Source: Candidatus Heimdallarchaeota archaeon (GTDB lineage: Archaea; Asgardarchaeota; Heimdallarchaeia; Heimdallarchaeales; Heimdallarchaeaceae). From it: 64,000 nt of DNA. Positions within the stretch are counted from its first letter, which is position 1, and each line of letters opens with the position of its first letter. Both the position numbers and the translations under genes were made by a program. Positions 39,359 to 50,184 of the stretch are shown here, one piece after another. The stretch covers positions 288,001-352,000 of the forward strand of contig JAUVXV010000002.1 in assembly GCA_030603365.1 (NCBI GenBank), given 5' to 3'. A model generated the notes under the pieces. It was not told the origin of the DNA. It saw only the letters and a list, made by a program, of their open reading frames with translations, and searched no databases.

Positions 39359-40186
39359 ATGAAGAAAAAAGCAGTATTTATTCTATCTTTGTTATGTCTA
39401 TCTATAGTTTCATTTACAATGAGTACTATACAAGCAGATTTTGAAATTAGTTATCAAGGTTTTACTTACTCAGATAACTTATCTCCAGGTGAATCAGTTG
39501 CTTGGGAGATTATGAAACTAGAAAAAGATGACCAATATGAATGGGAAATAAAACCAGGAATAACTATGGAGTTAGGCGACATCCTTAGAGTTAATATCAC
39601 AACAGATCCAGATGCATTAAACCTTACTACATTTGAAGAAATACACACCACAAATGAAGAATGGGCGAACTTCTATAAAAATGACGATTATCTAGGAAAC
39701 GATGCATCTGACCTAAACTGGGGTAGCTCTCTTTATCCTGGAGCTTTACTCTGGGGTCCAATATTCTGGATGTACTTTGTTCCTGTAATTCTGCAAAATG
39801 CCACAGCAAGTGTTGATTTCTTTGATTTTGTAGTACAGCATTTTGGAGTGTATGTATTTGATGATCCAGGTGGATCATATGATATTGAAAAGAAAGGCAA
39901 TTTATTAATAATATCTGCGGAGGTACATGCTGATATATCTGGTGGAATTTTTGGAGGAGATTATAAATTTGATTCATTCGTGGAAATTAGCTACAACGTT
40001 GAATGGGGTACTTTGGATAAACTAGAAATTGATGAAACCGTAGATAGTAGTGCAGGAAAAGAAACATTCAAATTAATACTTTTGAACACTATCAGTACTC
40101 AAAGCATTCCCTTTAATTGGACATATGGTATGATAGCTCTTTTTATTATTGGATTAGCATATATTCTAAGGAAAAAAATACATTAA
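39359..40186 (+). CDS. Secreted protein with C-terminal TM and basic tail (CTERM-type anchor)
   Basis: Signal peptide; IPFNW-TM-RKKIH. Confidence 0.75.
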   Translation: MKKKAVFILSLLCLSIVSFTMSTIQADFEISYQGFTYSDNLSPGESVAWEIMKLEKDDQYEWEIKPGITMELGDILRVNITTDPDALNLTTFEEIHTTNEEWANFYKNDDYLGNDASDLNWGSSLYPGALLWGPIFWMYFVPVILQNATASVDFFDFVVQHFGVYVFDDPGGSYDIEKKGNLLIISAEVHADISGGIFGGDYKFDSFVEISYNVEWGTLDKLEIDETVDSSAGKETFKLILLNTISTQSIPFNWTYGMIALFIIGLAYILRKKIH

Positions 40187-40333
40187 AAGGAAAAAAAGGT
40201 TAATATTTTCTCCCTTTTTTTTATTATTTTTAAAAAATCTATTGTACCATAGTTGATGGTCTTGTAAAAAAATCTCCAAATTAGAAGAGAAACAGAAAAA
40301 GAGAATATTCAAGAAACTTGTGGGGAAGAGGAA

Positions 40334-41065
40334 TTAACTTCCTTCCCAATCAGTTTTCAACATTTGATCTTTATCCTCTGGGACAACTGGGTCTACATAA
40401 TAAGCGATTTTTCCAGCCCATCTGACCTCTCCTGTTCTATAAATTGGATTGGATCTGATATTTCGTAAGGTTGAAACTGGGATATTGTATTTCATACTTA
40501 ATGTTTTCAATGATGAAAAGGGATTATCAAATTCTCCAAATAACCTACGGATAAGACCTCTTTTGCTTTCTTCGATCATCAAATTTCCATTTTCATCAAC
40601 AGCATAACCAAAGGGTGGTCGAGACATGACTTTCTTATCATTAATTCTTCGTAACATTCCTTTGTATCGCTTTTCACGATATTTTTCCAGTTCCATTTCC
40701 CCGAATAAATCTTTAACTCTTGCAATCGCTTTGTTATCTTCATCATCCAAACAGACAATTGATAGTTCTTTTTTCTTGAGTAGAATTCTAATATAACCTA
40801 AAACGTCAACATCCCTGGATAATCTATCTCTGGATTGACTCCATAATTCATCAAATTCATCATTTTCAGTCATCCTCAATATTTCTAGAAAGCCTTCTCT
40901 ATATTCAGGATCACTGTCTCCAGGGCAATCTTCATCTCGAACAATCTTTACAATTTCTCGATCCCCAGCTTGGTAAATTTTTGCTGAAACATCATCAATT
41001 TGTGTTTCCAATCCTGATTCTTGATCAGCAGTTGAAGTTCGAACATATACAACACAACGAATCAT
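40334..41065 (-). CDS. Serine recombinase (resolvase catalytic domain plus short recombinase DNA-binding domain, no zinc ribbon)
   Basis: YVRTST catalytic Ser, REGF, SRDRLSRD, PPFGY, NPIY. Confidence 0.9.
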   Translation of the reverse strand: MIRCVVYVRTSTADQESGLETQIDDVSAKIYQAGDREIVKIVRDEDCPGDSDPEYREGFLEILRMTENDEFDELWSQSRDRLSRDVDVLGYIRILLKKKELSIVCLDDEDNKAIARVKDLFGEMELEKYREKRYKGMLRRINDKKVMSRPPFGYAVDENGNLMIEESKRGLIRRLFGEFDNPFSSLKTLSMKYNIPVSTLRNIRSNPIYRTGEVRWAGKIAYYVDPVVPEDKDQMLKTDWEGS

Positions 41066-41131
41066 AATAACCTTGTTAAGAAGGTTTAGACCTTCACTAA
41101 AAGGTATGTACTACTGGACAACATATGAAAC

Positions 41132-41581
41132 TTATCTTTCGTCGAAAACCACTTGTTCAACAAGCCTTTTATCTTGTTTTTTAGTTAGATAGCGATAAAT
41201 GAAATACTCCACCTTCTCAATTGATTCATCATAATTAAGAGGTAGTTCTCGTCCACTTTCCTTAAGATGGATTAATCTTTGTCTTAATAGACTCAAAGTA
41301 AGAGCAACAGTTCGATTTCTTTCATAAAGCTCATTCGCTTTTAATCGAATTAGAGCATACTCTTGAAATAAACTAGAATACTCTCTACTTAATTCTTGGA
41401 ATATTTTTTCATCTTCAGCTCTTTTATTAGAAAGATCATTCATGTCCCAATCAGTTAGTTCGTCAGGTATAATCTCCAAATAATAAAGATAATAAGCTAA
41501 ATCACTTGCAAGAATATTTTCATCCTCACATGGAATTTTGTCCTTGAATTTAATATTGAACCTTGTAGTATTTATTTTCAT
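41132..41581 (-). CDS. Hypothetical helical protein
   Basis: 149-aa ORF; ATGA overlap with the upstream gene. Confidence 0.7.
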   Translation of the reverse strand: MKINTTRFNIKFKDKIPCEDENILASDLAYYLYYLEIIPDELTDWDMNDLSNKRAEDEKIFQELSREYSSLFQEYALIRLKANELYERNRTVALTLSLLRQRLIHLKESGRELPLNYDESIEKVEYFIYRYLTKKQDKRLVEQVVFDER

Positions 41582-41955
41582 TGAATAGTCTCCCCACCTA
41601 AATCTTTGACAATTTGCTCAATTTTTATCACAGTGTTATAATCTTGATTATATTCCTCTAGAGCATCTCTAAGTATCTCAACATGGTCATTAATTTTTTG
41701 TAAATCATCTATTCGTTCCTTTAATCTAAATGCAAATTCTCCATATTTCATTACTCCTAGAAAAAAATCCCTGAAACTTTTTTCTTGTGAGTGAGCATAG
41801 TTTTTTTTCCAAGCATGGAAAATAATACTCATCACTTTTGGATACTTTGCTAAAATTTGTTTTTCTTGAATTTTGTTCTTCTGAGCATAATTCTTTATTC
41901 TTCTGCTCTGAGTAATATTAAAGGTAAGTTGTTTAATGGTTTTCATACCATTCAA
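41578..41955 (-). CDS. Hypothetical basic/helical protein
   Basis: 125-aa ORF between the GTPase and the next hypothetical gene. Confidence 0.7.
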   Translation of the reverse strand: MNGMKTIKQLTFNITQSRRIKNYAQKNKIQEKQILAKYPKVMSIIFHAWKKNYAHSQEKSFRDFFLGVMKYGEFAFRLKERIDDLQKINDHVEILRDALEEYNQDYNTVIKIEQIVKDLGGETIQ

Positions 41956-42006
41956 GTAAAAGTCTGATGCAAAATAGATAAAGATTTAGTTAGTTTGAGT
42001 GGTCTA

Positions 42007-42699
42007 TCATCTGTAAGTCTGCATTGCAAGATAATTAAAAATAATAGTTAATGGTAATTCGTAGCAGTCTGCATGAAAATTAGAGGTTTCATAGAAGAGG
42101 AGCTCTCTGTCAACAATAGATGAGTATACTATGCGTTCTGCAACTTCTTTTCCTAGATACACTCCTTTACTCTTCAGGTCAGATTTATTAATAAAGACAA
42201 TGACTGGAATATTCCTTTGTTTTCTTGCTTCTTCTATATTCACCATTTCAAGATAGTGGACAATTTTCTCTAGTGAGGATATATTGGTACCATCAGCCAT
42301 AATTACTACAAGATCTGCACCTTTAATGGCTATTTCTTGCATAAAATCAAAGCGTTCTTGACCTGCAGGATCATTAAAAACAACTTGAAATGCTGAATCA
42401 ATCGATTCAAAATCAAGGGTTTCGATCTGTTCGTATTTTCTTAAAATCACTTTGTTAAAACGGGTTAGTACAATAACAGAGTTTACAACATTCAGAGAAA
42501 TAGTTGTTGTACTAGAAGTGAAATTATTATATCTTAAAGGAGTAAAATCCAAATTATTACTGACTTCTTTGAATAGTCTTCTAGCTACATCATTTTTTTC
42601 TATATTTCCAAACATAGCTTCAAGAAAAGTAGTTTTGCCAGACCCTGTAGTTCCTAGAATAGTAATTTTCTTAAGTGTTAGATGGGTCATCAAATTCAT
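42007..42699 (-). CDS. Small (Ras-superfamily-like) GTPase
   Basis: G1 GTTGSGKT, G2 TTT, G3 DPAGQERF, G4 NKSD, G5 ETS. Confidence 0.9.
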   Translation of the reverse strand: MNLMTHLTLKKITILGTTGSGKTTFLEAMFGNIEKNDVARRLFKEVSNNLDFTPLRYNNFTSSTTTISLNVVNSVIVLTRFNKVILRKYEQIETLDFESIDSAFQVVFNDPAGQERFDFMQEIAIKGADLVVIMADGTNISSLEKIVHYLEMVNIEEARKQRNIPVIVFINKSDLKSKGVYLGKEVAERIVYSSIVDRELLFYETSNFHADCYELPLTIIFNYLAMQTYR

Positions 42700-42840
42700 T
42701 ACAGTTACTCCTACAGCAAAGCAGTTCTTATCTTAATAATCAAGAAAAAAATCCTTTATAAGAAGTCTGATAGTACAATCGGAAGGAAAATAAACCAAAT
42801 GAAAAACAAGATAGATTTTTATTGAATCTGTCCCCACACT

Positions 42841-43887
42841 TTATTCTACATAATAGATAGATTGTCTAGCGTCTCGAAGATGAGGTCTCTGATTAATGAC
42901 ACTTTTACCTTTGAGAATAGCAAGAGCATTTCTAACAGTACGATTCGGTAAACCTGTACTTTCAATTAATTCCTTTTGTGTCATCTCACCTTCAGTTAAA
43001 AGAAGTTTGAAAATGTATTTTGCAGAAGGGGGAACCCCTTGAAGATTTCTCAAATCAAGTTCTACCAGACGATTACGAAGTTTTGCTAGAATATTCTTTT
43101 TAGCTTGAAATCTCATGATTTTAGCAGTAGAGGATGACTTTCGGAGTAGAATTTCATCATCAACCCCTAGTCGTAATTGGCCATCAATAATTGCCTCGAT
43201 GGGTGATCTTGATTTCACATTGACAAGCTTTATTTCTGAATCTAATGGTAAAACTAAAGGAATATGGTCTTTACTTAAAGGATTAACAGGAACGATGATT
43301 ATAACATCAGGATTTCCAAAGGCTATAGGCCCTCCTGATGAGAGAGCATATCCTGTACTTCCTAATGCTGTTGATATTATTAAACCATCTGCCCTCCCAC
43401 GATATAATTGGTTCTTATTTATCATTAGAGTATAATTCATTAATAGTGCTGAATCTTTAGGAAAAATTGCTATTTCATTCAAAGCAGGAACAGGCAGATT
43501 ACTTTTCATATCTTGAAACACGACTTGATTATAATTATCAACATCATATTTTCTTGAAAGTAATGCTTGTAATGTTTCCCTCACATTTAGAGGGTTTATC
43601 TCAGTGAAAAAACTTATGCTTTCAGCTGTTGCTGATACAACAGGAATAGTATTTCTACTTAGGAAAATAGCTCTCAGAAATGTACCAGTTCCACCAATAG
43701 CAATCAAACAATTAATCCGTTGAGTTGAGAAATCTTGAATCTCATTCTGCCAGTTGTCCTCAGTTAGCTCTTTATCTTGTAGTTCAATAATATCTAAAGA
43801 AGGGTTCAACTCTAATAGAACTTCTTGGATTTCTTGAGCAAATTCTTTCGAAGTCTTTTCTTCTGCAATATAAAGAGCTAAATTCAT
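42841..43887 (-). CDS. NAD kinase-like domain (degenerate GGDG) fused to a C-terminal MarR-like winged HTH; putative regulator
   Basis: IGGTGTFL, ALNEI, ADGLIISTALGSTGYALSSGGP, IDGQ; tail PPSAKYIFKLL..GEMTQKELIESTGLPNRTVRNAL…DARQSIY. Confidence 0.85.
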   Translation of the reverse strand: MNLALYIAEEKTSKEFAQEIQEVLLELNPSLDIIELQDKELTEDNWQNEIQDFSTQRINCLIAIGGTGTFLRAIFLSRNTIPVVSATAESISFFTEINPLNVRETLQALLSRKYDVDNYNQVVFQDMKSNLPVPALNEIAIFPKDSALLMNYTLMINKNQLYRGRADGLIISTALGSTGYALSSGGPIAFGNPDVIIIVPVNPLSKDHIPLVLPLDSEIKLVNVKSRSPIEAIIDGQLRLGVDDEILLRKSSSTAKIMRFQAKKNILAKLRNRLVELDLRNLQGVPPSAKYIFKLLLTEGEMTQKELIESTGLPNRTVRNALAILKGKSVINQRPHLRDARQSIYYVE

Positions 43888-44183
43888 TTTTATCAACAAA
43901 TTTCTACTTATTTTAACAACTATGTAAATGATTTATTTATACTTATGCTCTGTTAATCTTATCAAGTCAATTTTATGTATATGCAATACAGAATGAAGTT
44001 AAAAGAGGAATTCGAAAATAATTATGAGAAAAAAATAGGCAAACCTTGCTTCTTTATTAGCACTTCAACCTTTAAAACATGAACTAGTTGTAATTTAGTA
44101 TCAGTGGAAACATTTTTCGTTCATTTTTGTCCTTAAACAAACACTCTTTAAATACAAGATGACAGAATTGTTCCCGACAGAAG

Positions 44184-45209
44184 ATGGTTGTAATAGAAGA
44201 GGCTCCTAAAGTAGTTAAAGAAAATATTTTTTCATTAGAGCAAGAAGTAGAACGCTTATATTCAAAATTAGGCAAATTGGGATGGAGTAAGAGTGCATGT
44301 GAATCTATAGCACCATTTACTCTGAAGATTAACACAATTAAAAAAGAAAAAGGTATTAAGATATTTGCTCATTCTTATCAAACAGCTGATATCGTTTTTG
44401 GTATTGCTGATATTGTGGGAGATTCTCTAGCATTAGCAAAGAAAGCAACAACTGTCAAAGAAGATACTATCCTGTTTTGTGGCGTTGATTTCATGGCTGA
44501 ATCAGTTAAAATTCTCAGTCCCGAGAAAACTGTAATTGTTCCCGAACGAGGTAGAGACTGCACTTTAGCAGATTCCATAATAGCTGATGATGTAAGAAAG
44601 CTGAAGATAGAAAATCCAGGAGTTCCTGTGATATGCTATGTGAATACAAATGCAGATGTTAAAGCAGAATCAGATATTTGCTGTACTTCCGCAAATGCAA
44701 AAAGAATTATTGAAAAAGTTAACACAGACACGGTAATTTTCATCCCTGATGAGAATATGGGGAAGAATCTCGCTAAAATTACTGGGAAGACCATTATCAC
44801 TTGGCCAGGTTATTGTAGAACACACGATGCAGTTACCCTAAAAAGACTAAATGCACTTTTGAAGGATAAAGATGTCAAAACCTTTGCTCATCTTGAATGC
44901 AAACCAGAAATAATTGAGAATGTAGATTATTATGGAGGGACTAGTGATATGCACAAATATGCAGAAGAAGGAGCAAATGGTGAGAAAGTTCTCTATGTAA
45001 CTGAACAAGGGTTCATAGATAGAATGAAAGTTGAATATCCTAATGTTGAGTTCGTTGACAGTAAAATGTTCTGTGTTAGCATGAAAAGAAATGATCTGAT
45101 ATCTACTTTGAATGCTCTTGAGAACCCAACTGAAGATAATATCATTGAACTTGAAGAAGATATCCGTAAAAGAGCTTATAGAGCAGTGAACAACATGCTC
45201 AAATACTAA
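44184..45209 (+). CDS. nadA: Quinolinate synthase
   Basis: AHSYQ, GDSL, FCGVDFMAE, YVNT, CTSANA, PDENMG, HLEC; three cluster Cys (DCTLA, GYCRTH, FCVSMK). Confidence 0.95.
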   Translation: MVVIEEAPKVVKENIFSLEQEVERLYSKLGKLGWSKSACESIAPFTLKINTIKKEKGIKIFAHSYQTADIVFGIADIVGDSLALAKKATTVKEDTILFCGVDFMAESVKILSPEKTVIVPERGRDCTLADSIIADDVRKLKIENPGVPVICYVNTNADVKAESDICCTSANAKRIIEKVNTDTVIFIPDENMGKNLAKITGKTIITWPGYCRTHDAVTLKRLNALLKDKDVKTFAHLECKPEIIENVDYYGGTSDMHKYAEEGANGEKVLYVTEQGFIDRMKVEYPNVEFVDSKMFCVSMKRNDLISTLNALENPTEDNIIELEEDIRKRAYRAVNNMLKY

Positions 45210-45226
45210 TTTACTAGTGTATTGCT

Positions 45227-46063
45227 ATGATTCCTGTTATTCTAATCGATGAAGATATTAAGAAGTGGATAGAAGAAGACATACCTTATTGGGATGTTAC
45301 AACATCACTTCTCCCAGAAGGTAAAGCTGAAGGAAAGATCTATTCAAAACAAGAAGGTACCGTTGCTGGATTATTTGTTGTAAAAAGAATTTTTGAACTT
45401 CTAGGAGCTGAGTTTGTTTCACTTGTAGATGAAGGTAAAGAAGTGGAGAAAAAGACTCCAATTGCAGCTGTTAAAGGTGATATTCATTCTCTTTTACAAG
45501 CAGAACGGGTAGCTTTGAATATTCTTGGAAGAATGTCTGGAATTGCAACACAGACCTCGAAAATGCTTAAAATTGCAAAAGAAGGGAATCCTAATCTTCG
45601 AATTTGTGGAACTAGAAAAGTTGTACCTGGATTAAGTAAATATGACAAATATGCAATAATTATGGGTGGAGGAGATACACATCGTTTCAATCTATCCGAT
45701 ATGATACTCTTAAAAGAGAATCATTTGATTGCATTCCAATCAATTACTGAAGCCATTACTACAGCCAAACAGAAAACTAGTTTTAGTAAGAAGATAGAGG
45801 TTGAGGTTCAAAACGAGGGGCAAGCTATTGAAGCAGCTAAAGCTGGAGCTGATATTATCATGCTCGATAATTTCTCACCAGAGCAAGCAAACCAAACAAT
45901 ATCAAAAATCGCAGATATTAACTCACGAATACTTTTCGAATTAAGTGGTAATATAACTTTAGAGAATCTTAGCAAATACGCTCTTAAGGGTGTAGATCTA
46001 ATCTCATCTGGATCTCTAACTCATTCTGTGAAAAATTTTGATGTTACTATGCTTATTGAATAA
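45227..46063 (+). CDS. nadC: Quinolinate phosphoribosyltransferase (nicotinate-nucleotide diphosphorylase)
   Basis: AERVALN, GTRK, HRFNLSD, KENH, EVEV, MLDN, SGNI, GSLTHS. Confidence 0.95.
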   Translation: MIPVILIDEDIKKWIEEDIPYWDVTTSLLPEGKAEGKIYSKQEGTVAGLFVVKRIFELLGAEFVSLVDEGKEVEKKTPIAAVKGDIHSLLQAERVALNILGRMSGIATQTSKMLKIAKEGNPNLRICGTRKVVPGLSKYDKYAIIMGGGDTHRFNLSDMILLKENHLIAFQSITEAITTAKQKTSFSKKIEVEVQNEGQAIEAAKAGADIIMLDNFSPEQANQTISKIADINSRILFELSGNITLENLSKYALKGVDLISSGSLTHSVKNFDVTMLIE

Positions 46064-46075
46064 AAAGAAAAGAAA

Positions 46076-47155
46076 TTAGACAGGTATGAAACTGTCTCCT
46101 TCTTTAATAGATTTTATAAATTCAACTACAAGAAGTACAATGTTTTTTACATCATCTAAACATACAATTTCAGATGCTGTATGCATATATCTATTTGGTA
46201 TCGCCAACAATCCTGTAGCTGCACCAGAAAGTTGTATGGCATTAGCATCAGTTCCTGTTCCTCTAGGGGCAGCATTTTTCTGATAAGGAATATCGTTCTC
46301 CTCAGCTATTTTGAAAAGTTTTGTAACAACAACTGGGTTGAAATTAGGTCCGATTGAAATGATAGGACCACCACCAAGTTTTGTATCCCCAACTAGCTTC
46401 TTTTCTATTTCAGGAGCGTCAGCAGCAAAACCAACATCAAAAGCTAATCCAATATCTGGCTTAATTGCTTCAGCAGCAATATGGGCTCCTCTCAAACCTA
46501 TTTCTTCTTGAACGGTAGAAACACCATATACTCCAGAATAGAAATCTTTGTCCTTTGCTAATTCTATCATGATTTCAGCTACTATGAAAGAGCCTATAGC
46601 ATCATCAAAACCAGCTGCAACTGCAAAGTTATTTTTACCTAGTTTTGCATAACCATAATCAAAAACTGCAAAATCACCTACATCTACATATTTCTTAGCT
46701 TCTTCTTCATCCTTGCAACCTATATCGATAAATAATTTCTCCATTTCAGGAGCTTTCTTCCTTTCATCTGGTTTCATTAAATGGATTGCTTTTTTGCCAA
46801 TAACGCCAAGAAGTTCACCCTTCTCTGAAATAACACGAACTCTTTTGCCAGGGAGGGTAGAAGTATCAAATCCACCTAGAGGAAGAATCCAGAGGAAACC
46901 TTTCTCATCAATATAAGAGATTTGAAAACCAATTTGATCAATATGACCTGCCAACATTATTTTGAATTTGCTTTCAGGGTTTATGATAGCACAAACATTT
47001 CCAACTTTATCAACTTCTATCTTGTCTACTTCATTTTCAAGATAAGTCTTTACTACACGTTGAGCAGGAAATTCATAACCTGTAGCTCTTGGTGTTGTTA
47101 CTAGTTTTTTTAGAAATTCTTCATTTAGTTCATAACTCAAAGTTAACACCTTCAA
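46076..47155 (-). CDS. M42 family (TET-like) aminopeptidase
   Basis: GHIDQIG, FDD, QEEIGLRGA, FDV, GTDA, RYMHT. Confidence 0.92.
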   Translation of the reverse strand: MKVLTLSYELNEEFLKKLVTTPRATGYEFPAQRVVKTYLENEVDKIEVDKVGNVCAIINPESKFKIMLAGHIDQIGFQISYIDEKGFLWILPLGGFDTSTLPGKRVRVISEKGELLGVIGKKAIHLMKPDERKKAPEMEKLFIDIGCKDEEEAKKYVDVGDFAVFDYGYAKLGKNNFAVAAGFDDAIGSFIVAEIMIELAKDKDFYSGVYGVSTVQEEIGLRGAHIAAEAIKPDIGLAFDVGFAADAPEIEKKLVGDTKLGGGPIISIGPNFNPVVVTKLFKIAEENDIPYQKNAAPRGTGTDANAIQLSGAATGLLAIPNRYMHTASEIVCLDDVKNIVLLVVEFIKSIKEGDSFIPV

Positions 47156-47286
47156 GTTTTCTTTTCAAAATTATTTTTAAAGATTTACTTAGCAATAAGA
47201 AAATTGGAAATAAGGTTAAGGAAGAATTCAATTCAGCTATTTTCACAAATGAAAAAAGTTAAGAAACCATATTCTTTTCAAAATTT

Positions 47287-47652
47287 ATGTCAGACATAGA
47301 GGTTGAAAGAACTCCAGATTTAAGCGAAAGTGTTGATAAGGATCAACAAAGAGAAGAGAAAATCTCAAAACTATTCAAAATTAGTAAAATCACAATTCTT
47401 GTTTCCTTATCAATTCTTTGGATTGTAACTGCAGTTCTAGGTCTTATAAGTCTCTGGAAAGGTCAGGGGATTTTGGAGACTCCTTGGGTGATCTTTGGTT
47501 TAGTATTAACTGTAGTAATAATAGTTTTGGTGGTAATTCCTCTTTTTAGAAGCCTTAGAGCTGATGTTAAGGAATTTAATAAGGAAAAAGCTGAAAAAGA
47601 AAGAAAAGAGAAAGAACTAAGTAAAGTTGAGGAAGAAATAGAGAAGGAATAA
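47287..47652 (+). CDS. Small 2-TM membrane protein with a charged tail
   Basis: Hydropathy pattern. Confidence 0.7.
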   Translation: MSDIEVERTPDLSESVDKDQQREEKISKLFKISKITILVSLSILWIVTAVLGLISLWKGQGILETPWVIFGLVLTVVIIVLVVIPLFRSLRADVKEFNKEKAEKERKEKELSKVEEEIEKE

Positions 47653-47664
47653 AAAAGAACAGGT

Positions 47665-50184
47665 TTATTCATAATCTCTTATAGTGAAAGTAATTTTTGT
47701 ACCTTGAGTGTAATCACCCTCAATTCTATCTTCTAGTAAAATTGTTCCTTCATAGGCTTTTATTATTCTATAGATGAACATCATTCCTAAACCTCGTATT
47801 CTGATTCCTGATTCAAAACTCTGAAGTATCTGTTTCTTCATATCATCAGAAATTCCTACTCCATCATCTTCGACTATCACTTTCCAATAAGACCCATATT
47901 TTTCATATAATTTCGAAATTTGTAGAGAAAATTTTATTTTTCCATCAGATGCAGACTGTAGCGCATTGTCGAAGATGTTAGAAAAAACATCTACCAGGAA
48001 AACGTTAGCATAAATTTCAATATCTTGGTCAAAATTTTTCTCTAAAATAATATCCATTTCAGGATATGAACTTTTTATTACGTCAAAAGCTTCATCTATA
48101 TAATCATCAAACTTTCTTTTAATAAATGGTTCAGAAGACTTCTCTAAACCACTAAGTTTTCGAATCTTATCTTTTACAGAATTTGCTCTGTTTATAATAC
48201 GTATAGCATGACCTACTAGGGTACTAACTTGTTTAGGTTCATCATTCATCATTCTTGCCATTTCGAGATAACCAAGAATTGCTTGATGATAATTGCTTAA
48301 ATCATGGGTGAACAGATCAATAGCTAATTCTGCTAAATGAGTAGCTTCTCGTTCCTTTCGAATAGCTTCTTCAAGTTTCAAAGCCATTTCTTCAAAAGCA
48401 AAATATATCTCGCCAACCTCATGAATATTTCGTTTTTCTGAAACATCAAAACTAACACTGTAGTCGCCTTCAGACACTGCCCTCATAGCTTTGAGCAATC
48501 GGACTGCATATTTAGAGAAGTTAACAGCCAAATATGTAGCTATTGAACCTATACCGATTATAATCGTAACTGATATAAGAACAAGAATTAATTCCAGAAA
48601 TCGCATATTTCTTTCAAGAGTATTCAAAATAGGTGTGAATTCATCCATTACTAATTCTAAGGGCGAGAAATGTAGCATAAACCAGGGAACGGAGGAAATA
48701 GGTTTGTAAAGAACAATGTATTCAGTATTGTTGTAAATTAGAATCTTATACCCAGATTCATAATTTAGAACTGAATCTACGCAAAATTGTAGATCTGTGT
48801 TATTGTAATCATCTATATTAGTTGTTGGGAATTCCTCTTTAGGTTTTCTTGTGGTGTTTGCAGCTATCTGAGGTGAAATTACTATTTCCTTCTGAACATT
48901 TATAATTAAAGAAAAATCATCTTTTGTTATATCTAATTCTAATGTATTCATTAGATAGTCGAGATTGACATCAAGTACCCAAAAACCAACCAAATCATTA
49001 TTTTCATCATATATGGCTTGACCTAGTGAGATGAAAATATACTGCAGTGTATAATCAACTCCTAGATTAGAGAAATGGCTTTCCATCCCTTTTCTTTCTG
49101 AAGCTGCTTCTGCTTCATGAAGTTCACTATACCAAGGCCTTTGAGTCCAGTCATAATCAGCTGTGTTTCCTAAAGAGATATCAGTGCTATAATCGGGTAT
49201 CCATGGATAGGTCCAGAAGTAATCAGGTGTAGCAAAATAAACCCATTGAAGTACTGGATTTAGTAGAGGTATCATATAGTTATACATTTCTTTAAGTCTA
49301 GTATCTGTATGACCAGATATAGAACCATTCAATTTACCCTTAAGTACACCAGAGTAATTTCCTTCTAAAGTTCCATTTATACAGCCTTCAATTCTAGATT
49401 TAACCCCTTCAGATGAAATAATACCAACACCATCTAAGTTATCATCTTGTATGAGGAAGTAAGTCTGAAGATAGTCAAGATCTAGTATTTCTAAAGAGTT
49501 ATTCATCTCTCCAGGAAAGGAATAGAAACCAATATTCCATAAGTCCAACAATGAGCTATTGAAGGAATTAGAAAAAAGTGTTGTATAGTACTCAGTGATA
49601 TCGATAGTAATGGTGTTATCATTCTTCACCCCAAAAATAGAGATATTACCACTTGTTGACAATTGACCAGAAAAAGATGCATTGATCTGAAGATAGATAG
49701 ATCCTGTGATATTTAGTTGGTTAATTACATCACCAAAAATGGATCCACCAGCTGTTTCATAATCATTTTCACCATCCTCGTTATAGTCAAAAAAACTCAC
49801 ATATTCTTCTCTATCTATAGTTAAACTTACGTTTCCATTTGTATAAATCTGCTCATCAGAGTTGTTAAAAGCTATGTAGTTATACTCATATAGAGAACTT
49901 GAACCCTCTGCATATAGACTACTTGAAATTGATTGCACAGTATTATTGAGTTCGTCTTTCATTCCCCCAATTAGTTGGTCAAAAGATTGAACAAATTGAT
50001 TACTTGAAACATCCATGCTTTGAATCTTTGCATCAAGGTATTTATCCGAAGCTTCTGCTGAAATTGTTGCTAGTCGCAATTCCATAAGAAGAATTATAGA
50101 ACCATTAATTAGTAACATAATAATTGATAACAGGATAATAATATAAAGCGCAAGGCGTCGTGCAAGACGAGTTCTTCTGACCAT
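47665..50184 (-). CDS. Sensor histidine kinase (TM, Cache-type ectodomain, TM, HAMP, HisKA, HATPase_c)
   Basis: YDWTQRPWY Cache motif; VSEGDY…EVGEI HAMP; FTHDLSN; NIFDNA, DDGVGI, GLGM, GTK. Confidence 0.9.
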   Translation of the reverse strand: MVRRTRLARRLALYIIILLSIIMLLINGSIILLMELRLATISAEASDKYLDAKIQSMDVSSNQFVQSFDQLIGGMKDELNNTVQSISSSLYAEGSSSLYEYNYIAFNNSDEQIYTNGNVSLTIDREEYVSFFDYNEDGENDYETAGGSIFGDVINQLNITGSIYLQINASFSGQLSTSGNISIFGVKNDNTITIDITEYYTTLFSNSFNSSLLDLWNIGFYSFPGEMNNSLEILDLDYLQTYFLIQDDNLDGVGIISSEGVKSRIEGCINGTLEGNYSGVLKGKLNGSISGHTDTRLKEMYNYMIPLLNPVLQWVYFATPDYFWTYPWIPDYSTDISLGNTADYDWTQRPWYSELHEAEAASERKGMESHFSNLGVDYTLQYIFISLGQAIYDENNDLVGFWVLDVNLDYLMNTLELDITKDDFSLIINVQKEIVISPQIAANTTRKPKEEFPTTNIDDYNNTDLQFCVDSVLNYESGYKILIYNNTEYIVLYKPISSVPWFMLHFSPLELVMDEFTPILNTLERNMRFLELILVLISVTIIIGIGSIATYLAVNFSKYAVRLLKAMRAVSEGDYSVSFDVSEKRNIHEVGEIYFAFEEMALKLEEAIRKEREATHLAELAIDLFTHDLSNYHQAILGYLEMARMMNDEPKQVSTLVGHAIRIINRANSVKDKIRKLSGLEKSSEPFIKRKFDDYIDEAFDVIKSSYPEMDIILEKNFDQDIEIYANVFLVDVFSNIFDNALQSASDGKIKFSLQISKLYEKYGSYWKVIVEDDGVGISDDMKKQILQSFESGIRIRGLGMMFIYRIIKAYEGTILLEDRIEGDYTQGTKITFTIRDYE

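What the first reader, a model, noticed from the sequence alone, without database searches (positions are those of the whole stretch)
42841..46063. Pseudo-NAD-kinase/winged-HTH fusion divergent from nadA-nadC: candidate new NAD(P)-sensing transcription factor
Seen: an NAD kinase-fold protein keeps the dinucleotide-binding motifs (LNE, DG-x-STxxGSTGY-x-SSGGP, IDG). The catalytic GGDG reads GGTG (codon ACT at 43687-43689, two changes from an Asp codon, so not a single-base error). The usual GIN.G.LGFL loop has decayed to SATAESISFF. A ~65-aa MarR-like wHTH is fused at the C-terminus. The gene sits head-to-head with nadA-nadC across about 295 bp. Established: the GGDG Asp is required for NAD kinase catalysis, and the known NAD regulators (NadR, NiaR, NrtR, NadQ, Rex) use other sensor folds; NrtR and NadQ derive from enzyme domains. 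Inference: an NAD kinase repurposed as a ligand sensor that controls de novo NAD synthesis. NADK-HTH fusions may occur in other archaea; the Asp loss together with nadAC linkage is the notable part.
Basis: partly seen in the sequence, partly recalled or inferred. Interest (0 to 1): 0.85.

Follow-up and report, generated by a model that had tools for sequence, protein, structure and literature searches.

The report
NAD-kinase-derived regulator of archaeal NAD synthesis
This Asgard archaeal gene joins a disabled copy of the enzyme NAD kinase to a DNA-binding domain. A short palindrome that appears in front of NAD-making genes almost only in archaea carrying this gene marks it as a very probable, apparently undescribed switch for NAD production.

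Summary
Confirmed. Window 42841-43899(-) encodes an NAD-kinase fold plus a C-terminal winged helix, with catalytic GGDG reading GGTG, head-to-head with nadA-nadC. The host (Heimdallarchaeaceae-like) has a separate canonical NAD kinase. The fusion belongs to an archaea-wide group distinct from canonical kinases, found beside nadA in several lineages and beside pncB/pncA, nadE or pnuC in others. A palindrome, GGCAA-N3-TTGCC (window 44038-44050), is the best genome-wide hit of a matrix trained without this genome, and was recovered de novo from distant lineages. Where the fusion gene lies far from nadA, the site still precedes nadA in 23/27 genomes, against 1/42 lacking the fusion (kin-inflated). 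Sites are often paired 29-33 bp apart, upstream of TATA-like boxes, suggesting an activator. Correction: Asp loss is lineage-specific. Most relatives keep the Asp but have a decayed glycine-rich loop, and some (two named DPANN) keep GGDG intact. DNA binding, ligand and loss of activity are inferred, not measured. I found no paper describing it; the closest analogue is RbkR. This scan already reported the family on other genomes.

The parts
42841..43899 (-). Gene for the NAD-kinase-fold/winged-helix fusion (likely start ATG at 43887, 348 aa; 352 aa from TTG at 43899)
43681..43695 (-). Degenerate catalytic motif GGTGT (canonical GGDGT); Thr71 codon ACT at 43687-43689
43474..43479 (-). NE motif (N141, E142), NAD adenine/ribose recognition in NAD kinases; retained
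43327..43389 (-). Conserved region II (D171-P191, with T182 and Y184); retained as strongly as in canonical kinases
42844..43038 (-). Winged helix-turn-helix, residues ~288-352; recognition-helix RTVR (320-323) and wing D343/R345/Y349 conserved across the family
43934..43941 (-). Predicted TATA box of the regulator gene (TATAAATA), partly conserved in kin
   Evidence: inferred, no transcript data
43974..43992 (.). Second, genus-level palindrome (TAYRTATTG-N-CAATAYRTA in kin; degenerate here); unexplained, perhaps another factor's site
44038..44050 (.). Predicted main operator GGCAAACCTTGCT (one mismatch to GGCAA-N3-TTGCC); top genome-wide matrix hit
44120..44132 (.). Degenerate TATA-proximal site TTCATTTTTGTCC, 14 nt before the nadA TATA box (two mismatches from consensus in some kin)
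   Evidence: weaker inference
44147..44154 (+). Predicted TATA box of nadA (TTTAAATA), conserved in the genus
   Evidence: inferred
44184..45209 (+). nadA, quinolinate synthase (predicted target)
45227..46063 (+). nadC, quinolinate phosphoribosyltransferase (same operon, 17-bp gap)

Best explanation
A one-component transcription factor for NAD biosynthesis, built from a duplicated NAD kinase. SHOWN by sequence and comparison: the two-domain build, retention of the NAD-binding residues, decay of the glycine-rich catalytic loops, a separate canonical kinase, recurrent linkage to NAD genes, and a 13-bp palindrome GGCAA-N3-TTGCC that precedes nadA and some salvage genes where the gene is present. 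INFERRED: the winged helices of a dimer bind the palindrome (about 0.9); the kinase body in this lineage is catalytically dead (about 0.85) and serves as a pocket for NAD(H) or NADP(H) (about 0.75); the protein is an activator bound upstream of BRE/TATA (about 0.7). By analogy with RbkR, it most likely stimulates nadA-nadC when the pocket is empty and lets go when the dinucleotide is plentiful (about 0.5). Paired sites 29-33 bp apart may be bridged by a tetramer (speculative).
For: Separate canonical GGDG kinase at C8:70079-70939; second match in 23 of 26 family genomes. Fusions fall on one side of an SH-aLRT 100 branch against 37 of 40 canonical kinases (quick tree). Conservation of NE, region II and IDG is 0.84-0.98 in non-GGDG fusions against 0.92-0.97 in canonical kinases, whereas GGDGT falls to 0.59 (0.99) and the N-G-GF loop to 0.51 (0.97). 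nadA lies next to the gene in 23 of 26 family genomes; in other Asgard families nadA in 15 and pncB/pncA in 4 of 20; distant members adjoin nadA-nadC-nadX, pncB, pncA, nadE or pnuC plus a NadR-like kinase. A matrix built without this genome ranks the window site first in 3.65 Mb. De novo search on ten non-Heimdallarchaeaceae spacers returns the same palindrome (log-likelihood 62 vs 21-26 in shuffles). In genomes where the gene is NOT beside nadA, a site with at most one mismatch precedes nadA in 23/27, against 1/29 Thermoproteota and 0/13 Asgard genomes without the fusion; background in the own genome is 13 of 3031 upstream regions. Sites lie upstream of TATA-like boxes and are paired in 15 of 15 Asgard nadA promoters examined. 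The recognition helix RTVR is 86-98% conserved, as a phylum-spanning motif would need.
Against: No binding, ligand, expression or activity data. 20 of the 27 positive genomes look like one class (Nitrososphaeria), so the counts overstate independence; of the other seven, three had the site at one mismatch or better and two had none. Only 16 of 70 Thermoproteota fusions are beside an NAD gene. Five fusion-bearing genomes without nadA have no perfect site. The genome holds three stand-alone winged-helix proteins 34-38% identical to this domain, which might read a similar site. In this genus the strong site is 96 nt from the nadA TATA box and the proximal site is degenerate. pncB, nadE and nadK of this genome have no site. 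TATA boxes are assigned by pattern only.
Confidence: 0.85

Rival explanations
1. A bifunctional enzyme-regulator like RbkR, BirA or NadR: it controls nadA but also still phosphorylates NAD, perhaps using the Asp that most Heimdallarchaeaceae relatives carry one position earlier (GDTG).
For: 19 of 128 fusions keep literal GGDG, often with the N-x-G-x-x-GF loop; two such clusters are named Micrarchaeota and Diapherotrites. 79 of 90 non-Heimdallarchaeaceae fusions keep the Asp. RbkR is such a bifunctional protein (PMC5397151).
Against: This protein has no Asp in the loop at all (GGTGT), and kin vary freely there (GGTG, GDTG, GDAG, GSTG, GHTG). The Asp is described as the catalytic centre and as critical by mutagenesis (PMC9763689). 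A canonical kinase is present.
Confidence: 0.12
2. It is a regulator of nadA but a repressor: the ligand-bound form blocks the promoter when NAD(P) is high, as NadR and NiaR do.
For: Proximal sites end about 9-15 nt before the TATA-like box, close enough to hinder TFB at the BRE. Most known NAD regulators are repressors (own knowledge; NrtR binding is released by ADP-ribose, PMC2330246).
Against: No site was seen over a TATA box or between TATA and start codon in about 60 promoters. In many lineages the strong site is the distal one, 40-100 nt upstream. The same geometry was read as activation for RbkR and shown for OxsR (PMC9426492).
Confidence: 0.25
3. The palindrome belongs to another factor, such as one of the stand-alone winged-helix paralogues, and the fusion's position is inherited synteny.
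For: The downstream GTPase block is also conserved in the genus, so synteny among kin is cheap. Related stand-alone HTH genes exist. The motif also precedes an unrelated ~140-aa gene family.
Against: The site tracks presence of the fusion across Asgard and Thermoproteota, the fusion recurs beside different NAD genes in different lineages, and the stand-alone genes have no site upstream.
Confidence: 0.05
4. The sensed ligand is not NAD(P) itself but a related metabolite (NaAD, NMN, ADP-ribose, nicotinate) or the NADP:NAD or redox ratio.
For: The pocket is remodelled: R243 is 95% conserved in fusions and variable in canonical kinases, and N206 is 72% vs 12%. Targets include both de novo and salvage genes.
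Against: The residues assigned to adenine, ribose and nicotinamide recognition (N141, E142, T182, Y184) are all kept, which fits an intact dinucleotide.
Confidence: 0.2

Closest known systems
RbkR, archaeal riboflavin kinase/wHTH regulator (PMC5397151)
   Same: Archaeal cofactor kinase fused to a winged helix; controls the cofactor's biosynthesis and uptake genes through palindromes upstream of TATA; likely activator.
   Different: Different fold (riboflavin kinase barrel), wHTH at the N-terminus, catalytically active and usually the only RibK; here NAD kinase fold, C-terminal wHTH, degenerate loop and a separate kinase.
NrtR (Nudix-related regulator, PMC2330246)
   Same: Enzyme-derived N-terminal sensor plus C-terminal HTH-like domain regulating NAD synthesis genes; often clustered with them.
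   Different: Nudix fold, ADP-ribose effector, described in bacteria, motif varies by lineage; here NAD kinase fold and one motif across archaeal phyla.
Canonical NAD kinase (NadK/PpnK, PF01513 + PF20143; PDB 1SUW, 1Z0S)
   Same: Same two-domain fold and NAD-binding motifs.
   Different: GGDG and N-x-G-x-x-GF loops decayed, extra wHTH, below every NCBIfam cut-off, separate branch in the tree.
NadR, NiaR, NadQ, Rex (bacterial NAD regulators; partly from own knowledge)
   Same: Transcriptional control tied to NAD or its precursors.
   Different: Unrelated sensor domains; none is built on an NAD kinase.
ThiR, archaeal thiamine regulator (from memory; paper not held)
   Same: Archaeal regulator whose sensor is an inactive cofactor-pathway enzyme domain.
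   Different: Thiamine-phosphate-synthase-like sensor, N-terminal HTH, described as a repressor. Not checked here.

Membership tests
Canonical NAD kinase | Two-domain NAD kinase fold | tested here: met
   Pfam above cut-off; Foldseek TM by target about 0.8 to solved kinases
Canonical NAD kinase | GGDG motif with catalytic Asp | tested here: not met
   GGTG; Asp 100% conserved in 112 canonical kinases
Canonical NAD kinase | NE/D motif and conserved region II | tested here: met
   N141, E142, D171, T182, Y184 present
Canonical NAD kinase | Score above a curated NAD kinase cut-off | tested here: not met
   Best 146 bits vs cut-off 326
Canonical NAD kinase | NAD phosphorylation activity | not testable with these tools
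   needs an assay
RbkR | Riboflavin kinase domain with N-terminal wHTH | tested here: not met
   NAD kinase fold, C-terminal wHTH
NrtR / NadR / NiaR / NadQ / Rex | Nudix, NMNAT-kinase, 3H, cytidylyltransferase-like or Rossmann sensor domain | tested here: not met
   No such Pfam or NCBIfam hit
MarR family | MarR/MarR_2 profile above cut-off | tested here: inconclusive
   MarR_2 15 bits vs cut-off 27; TrmB, HTH_24, HTH_9 similar; winged-helix topology in model
Enzyme-derived one-component transcription factor (functional class) | Sensor domain fused to a conserved DNA-binding domain | tested here: met
   128 full-length fusions; RTVR 86-98% conserved
Enzyme-derived one-component transcription factor (functional class) | Conserved palindrome before pathway genes that co-occurs with the gene | tested here: met
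   23/27 vs 1/29 and 0/13; de novo motif; paired sites
Enzyme-derived one-component transcription factor (functional class) | Ligand-dependent DNA binding shown in vitro or in vivo | not testable with these tools
   needs EMSA, ITC, genetics

The most novel reading that the evidence does not exclude
An undescribed archaea-wide NAD regulator family that records the whole path from enzyme to sensor: intact GGDG kinase-regulators in DPANN, Asp-retaining but loop-decayed forms in Thermoproteota and other Asgard, and Asp-less forms in Heimdallarchaeaceae. It would act as an NAD(P)-gated activator whose tetramer spans two operators three helical turns apart, with one DNA motif kept across phyla, and in this genus would also control an uncharacterised ~140-aa protein family.
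Probability: 0.35. Interest if true: 0.82.

Novelty: new variant of a known kind. Interest (0 to 1): 0.7.

Why it matters
My searches found no transcription factor described for archaeal NAD synthesis and no regulator built on an NAD kinase fold. The family occurs in 80 of 251 Thermoproteota genomes searched, including ammonia-oxidiser relatives, and in several Asgard families, where databases label it 'NAD kinase'; that would miscount NADP-forming capacity. It arrives with a predicted operator and targets, so it can be tested directly by EMSA and ITC. It also offers a case of enzyme-to-sensor evolution and possibly a scaffold for NAD(P) biosensors.

Tried and rejected
(1) Sequencing error at the Thr codon: rejected. 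(2) gdhA as a target: the site at C3:116804 is not conserved in 27 relatives. (3) pncB, nadE, pncA, nadK of this genome as targets: no site within 250 nt. (4) Autoregulation of stand-alone HTH genes by this motif: no site. (5) Homodimer prediction with NAD: no verdict (0.41 vs mark 0.42); no evidence either way. (6) Riboswitch or known RNA in 40000-48000: none in Rfam; the sigma-70 scan is at chance and not suited to archaea. (7) Transcript data: only contigs were available, none informative on starts or expression. (8) search for related loci was swamped by canonical kinases. (9) Searching targets in fusion-bearing genomes without nadA by perfect pattern or by PF17767 gave nothing usable. (10) Ten literature searches found no description; the library lacks most subscription papers, and the ThiR and Gelfand 2000 papers were not held. 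(11) The G029 nadA contig (L283) resembles another genus and may be misbinned, so it is not counted as a natural experiment. (12) The careful tree did not finish; only the quick tree is cited, without a root test.
Full report
Observation. The minus-strand ORF 42841-43899 encodes 352 aa from a TTG or 348 aa from the ATG at 43887; most close homologues are 348 aa. It hits both NAD kinase Pfam domains above cut-off and several helix-turn-helix families weakly at residues 288-346. It scores far below every curated NAD kinase cut-off. An AlphaFold2 model (pLDDT 87.9) shows the kinase body, a low-confidence linker at 267-281 and a winged-helix domain at 291-351; the 50 best PDB matches are NAD kinases. 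The catalytic motif reads GGTGT with ACT at 43687-43689, and contigs from two cold-seep studies cover the codon without a change there. nadA and nadC are full-length and pass NCBIfam cut-offs. The spacer is 296 bp. Close homologues are named Heimdallarchaeaceae.

A separate kinase exists. The genome carries a canonical GGDGT kinase at C8:70079-70939 and two further PF01513 proteins with GGDG. Of 26 genomes of the family with the fusion, 23 have a second match. Three named TACK genomes and most other Asgard carriers also have a second, shorter match.

The family. Protein searches gave 128 full-length fusions. They occur in 80 of 251 Thermoproteota genomes, in several Asgard families and in 3 of 201 genomes of one further phylum of small genomes; Atlas clusters are 100% archaeal. 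In a quick tree of the kinase domain the fusions are separated from 37 of 40 canonical kinases by a branch of SH-aLRT 100; the three exceptions sit among GGDG-keeping fusions. The NAD-binding motifs are as conserved as in real kinases (region II 0.96 vs 0.97, IDG 0.98 vs 0.96, NE 0.84 vs 0.92), while GGDGT and the N-x-G-x-x-GF loop are not (0.59 vs 0.99; 0.51 vs 0.97). A review assigns the GGDG Asp to catalysis and N, E, T and Y to adenine, ribose and nicotinamide recognition (PMC9763689); this protein keeps N141, E142, T182 and Y184. Outside Heimdallarchaeaceae 79 of 90 fusions keep the Asp, mostly as G-x-D-R/K/S, and 19 of 128 keep literal GGDG; two of those clusters are named Micrarchaeota and Diapherotrites. 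Asp loss is the end of a gradient, not the family's mark.

Neighbourhood. nadA adjoins the gene in 23 of 26 family genomes, but the downstream GTPase block is conserved in the genus too, so this alone is weak. Distant members are more telling: divergent nadA-nadC-aspartate dehydrogenase, nadA, pncB/pncA/nadE, pnuC plus a NadR-like kinase, pncA. In other Asgard families 15 of 20 loci have nadA and 4 have pncB/pncA. Linkage is not universal: 16 of 70 Thermoproteota loci, and none in Nitrososphaera- or Vulcanisaeta-like contexts.

The operator. Aligned spacers of kin are diverged except for TATA-like boxes and a palindrome near TAGGCAAA-N-TTTGCYT. A matrix from 19 relatives, with this genome left out, ranks window 44036-44052 first in the whole 3.65-Mb genome. 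An independent palindromic search on ten spacers from outside Heimdallarchaeaceae returned tatGCAAtnaTTGCata (62 vs 21-26 for shuffles). The stronger test uses genomes where the gene is far from nadA. A site within one mismatch of GGCAA-N3-TTGCC lies upstream of nadA in 23 of 27 of them, against 1 of 29 Thermoproteota and 0 of 13 Asgard genomes in which the fusion was not found. Background in the own genome is 13 of 3031 upstream regions. Twenty of the 27 look like Nitrososphaeria by gene context, so the number of independent cases is nearer three to five. In that class the site often follows the nadX stop codon, but it keeps its distance to nadA where nadX is absent, inverted or further off, so it is tied to the nadA promoter. 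In G023 an IS605-type ORF separates the two genes and the site stays with nadA. The recognition helix RTVR and wing residues D343, R345, Y349 are 86-98% conserved, which would explain one motif across phyla.

Geometry. In 15 of 15 other-Asgard nadA promoters the site is paired 29-30 bp apart, the proximal copy ending about 9-11 nt before a TATA-like box; in linked Thermoproteota the spacing is 30-33 bp; in Nitrososphaeria-like genomes the strong copy is about 40-45 nt upstream of TATA. Salvage promoters show pairs 30-31 bp apart as well. In this window the strong site ends 96 nt before the TATA box at 44147 and a degenerate copy at 44120-44132 ends 14 nt before it. No site was seen over TATA or the start region. 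The same geometry was read as activation for RbkR, whose DNA binding is weakened by its end product FMN (PMC5397151), and a site upstream of BRE/TATA was needed for activation by OxsR (PMC9426492).

Mechanism. Most likely a dimer or tetramer whose winged helices bind GGCAA-N3-TTGCC and help TFB/TBP onto the nadA-nadC promoter, while the dead kinase body reports NAD(H) or NADP(H), with release when the pool is full. The architecture, residue pattern, linkage and site co-occurrence are shown. Binding, ligand, direction and oligomer are inferred. Rivals are residual kinase activity (0.12 for this protein, higher for GGDG members), repression (0.25), another ligand (0.2) and another factor owning the site (0.05).

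Regulon in this genome. Beyond nadA-nadC, pncB, nadE, pncA and nadK have no site, and the gdhA site is not conserved. The only perfect site in 3.65 Mb precedes a 145-aa protein of an unannotated, genus-level family; one or two sites recur upstream of most of its closest orthologues, with no Pfam or Atlas match. It may be a recruited target.

Novelty. It works like RbkR and NrtR but is a member of neither, and it fails the canonical NAD kinase test at the catalytic motif. Ten literature searches found no description, within a library that lacks most subscription papers. Earlier agents of this scan reached the same reading on other genomes; I saw those notes after my own tests, and they are not independent support. 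Verdict: real, a very probable new family of archaeal NAD regulators, new variant of a known kind, interest 0.7.

Noticed in passing
G000 C7:86060-86497(-), C11:65525-65944(+) and 4-5 paralogues; loci L298-L327: Unannotated ~140-aa family (RSRARRF motif, CxxC) found in two genera only, with no Pfam or Atlas match. The GGCAA-N3-TTGCC palindrome, often twice, is conserved upstream of many members; possible extra targets.
   Followed up: partly
window 43974-43992: A second, different palindrome (TAYRTATTG-N-CAATAYRTA in kin) upstream of the regulator's own predicted TATA box; not explained.
   Followed up: partly
L290 (G023:C86:1-1300) and L289 (G029:C152): IS200/IS605-type ORFs inserted upstream of the fusion gene at about the same place in two genomes; in G023 the operator stays with nadA on another contig.
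   Followed up: partly
L286-L288 (G044, G055, G038); P0230, P0238, P0243: A long-branched subgroup of fusions in other Heimdallarchaeia with an almost erased catalytic loop and no nad gene beside it; in two loci it sits near a second kinase-like ORF and an SPFH-like ORF (by eye). Possibly a different regulon.
   Followed up: no
window 44184-45209: NadA here has an N-terminal extension of about 45 aa before the Pfam domain, shared by several Heimdallarchaeia.
   Followed up: no
G000 whole genome (89% complete): No aspartate dehydrogenase (nadX) and no nadB above cut-off were found (best 385 bits vs 453), so the source of iminoaspartate for NadA is unclear.
   Followed up: partly
L208 (G420:C5:19890-23873): A GGDG-keeping fusion ends against a nadD-like gene (by its N-terminal motif); the genome's other kinase match is only a fragment, so this member may be bifunctional.
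   Followed up: partly
window 40334-42699 (-): Small GTPase, two small hypothetical genes and a resolvase-domain gene follow the regulator; the GTPase and small genes are syntenic in most of the genus.
   Followed up: partly
G000 C1:180514-180759, C1:499045-499260, C1:346872-347144: Three stand-alone winged-helix genes 34-38% identical to the fused domain; the last is close to an AcoX-type kinase gene.
   Followed up: partly
G027:C1:1886643-1889646: The canonical NAD kinase match appears twice with identical scores about 2.2 kb apart (tandem duplication or assembly repeat).
   Followed up: no
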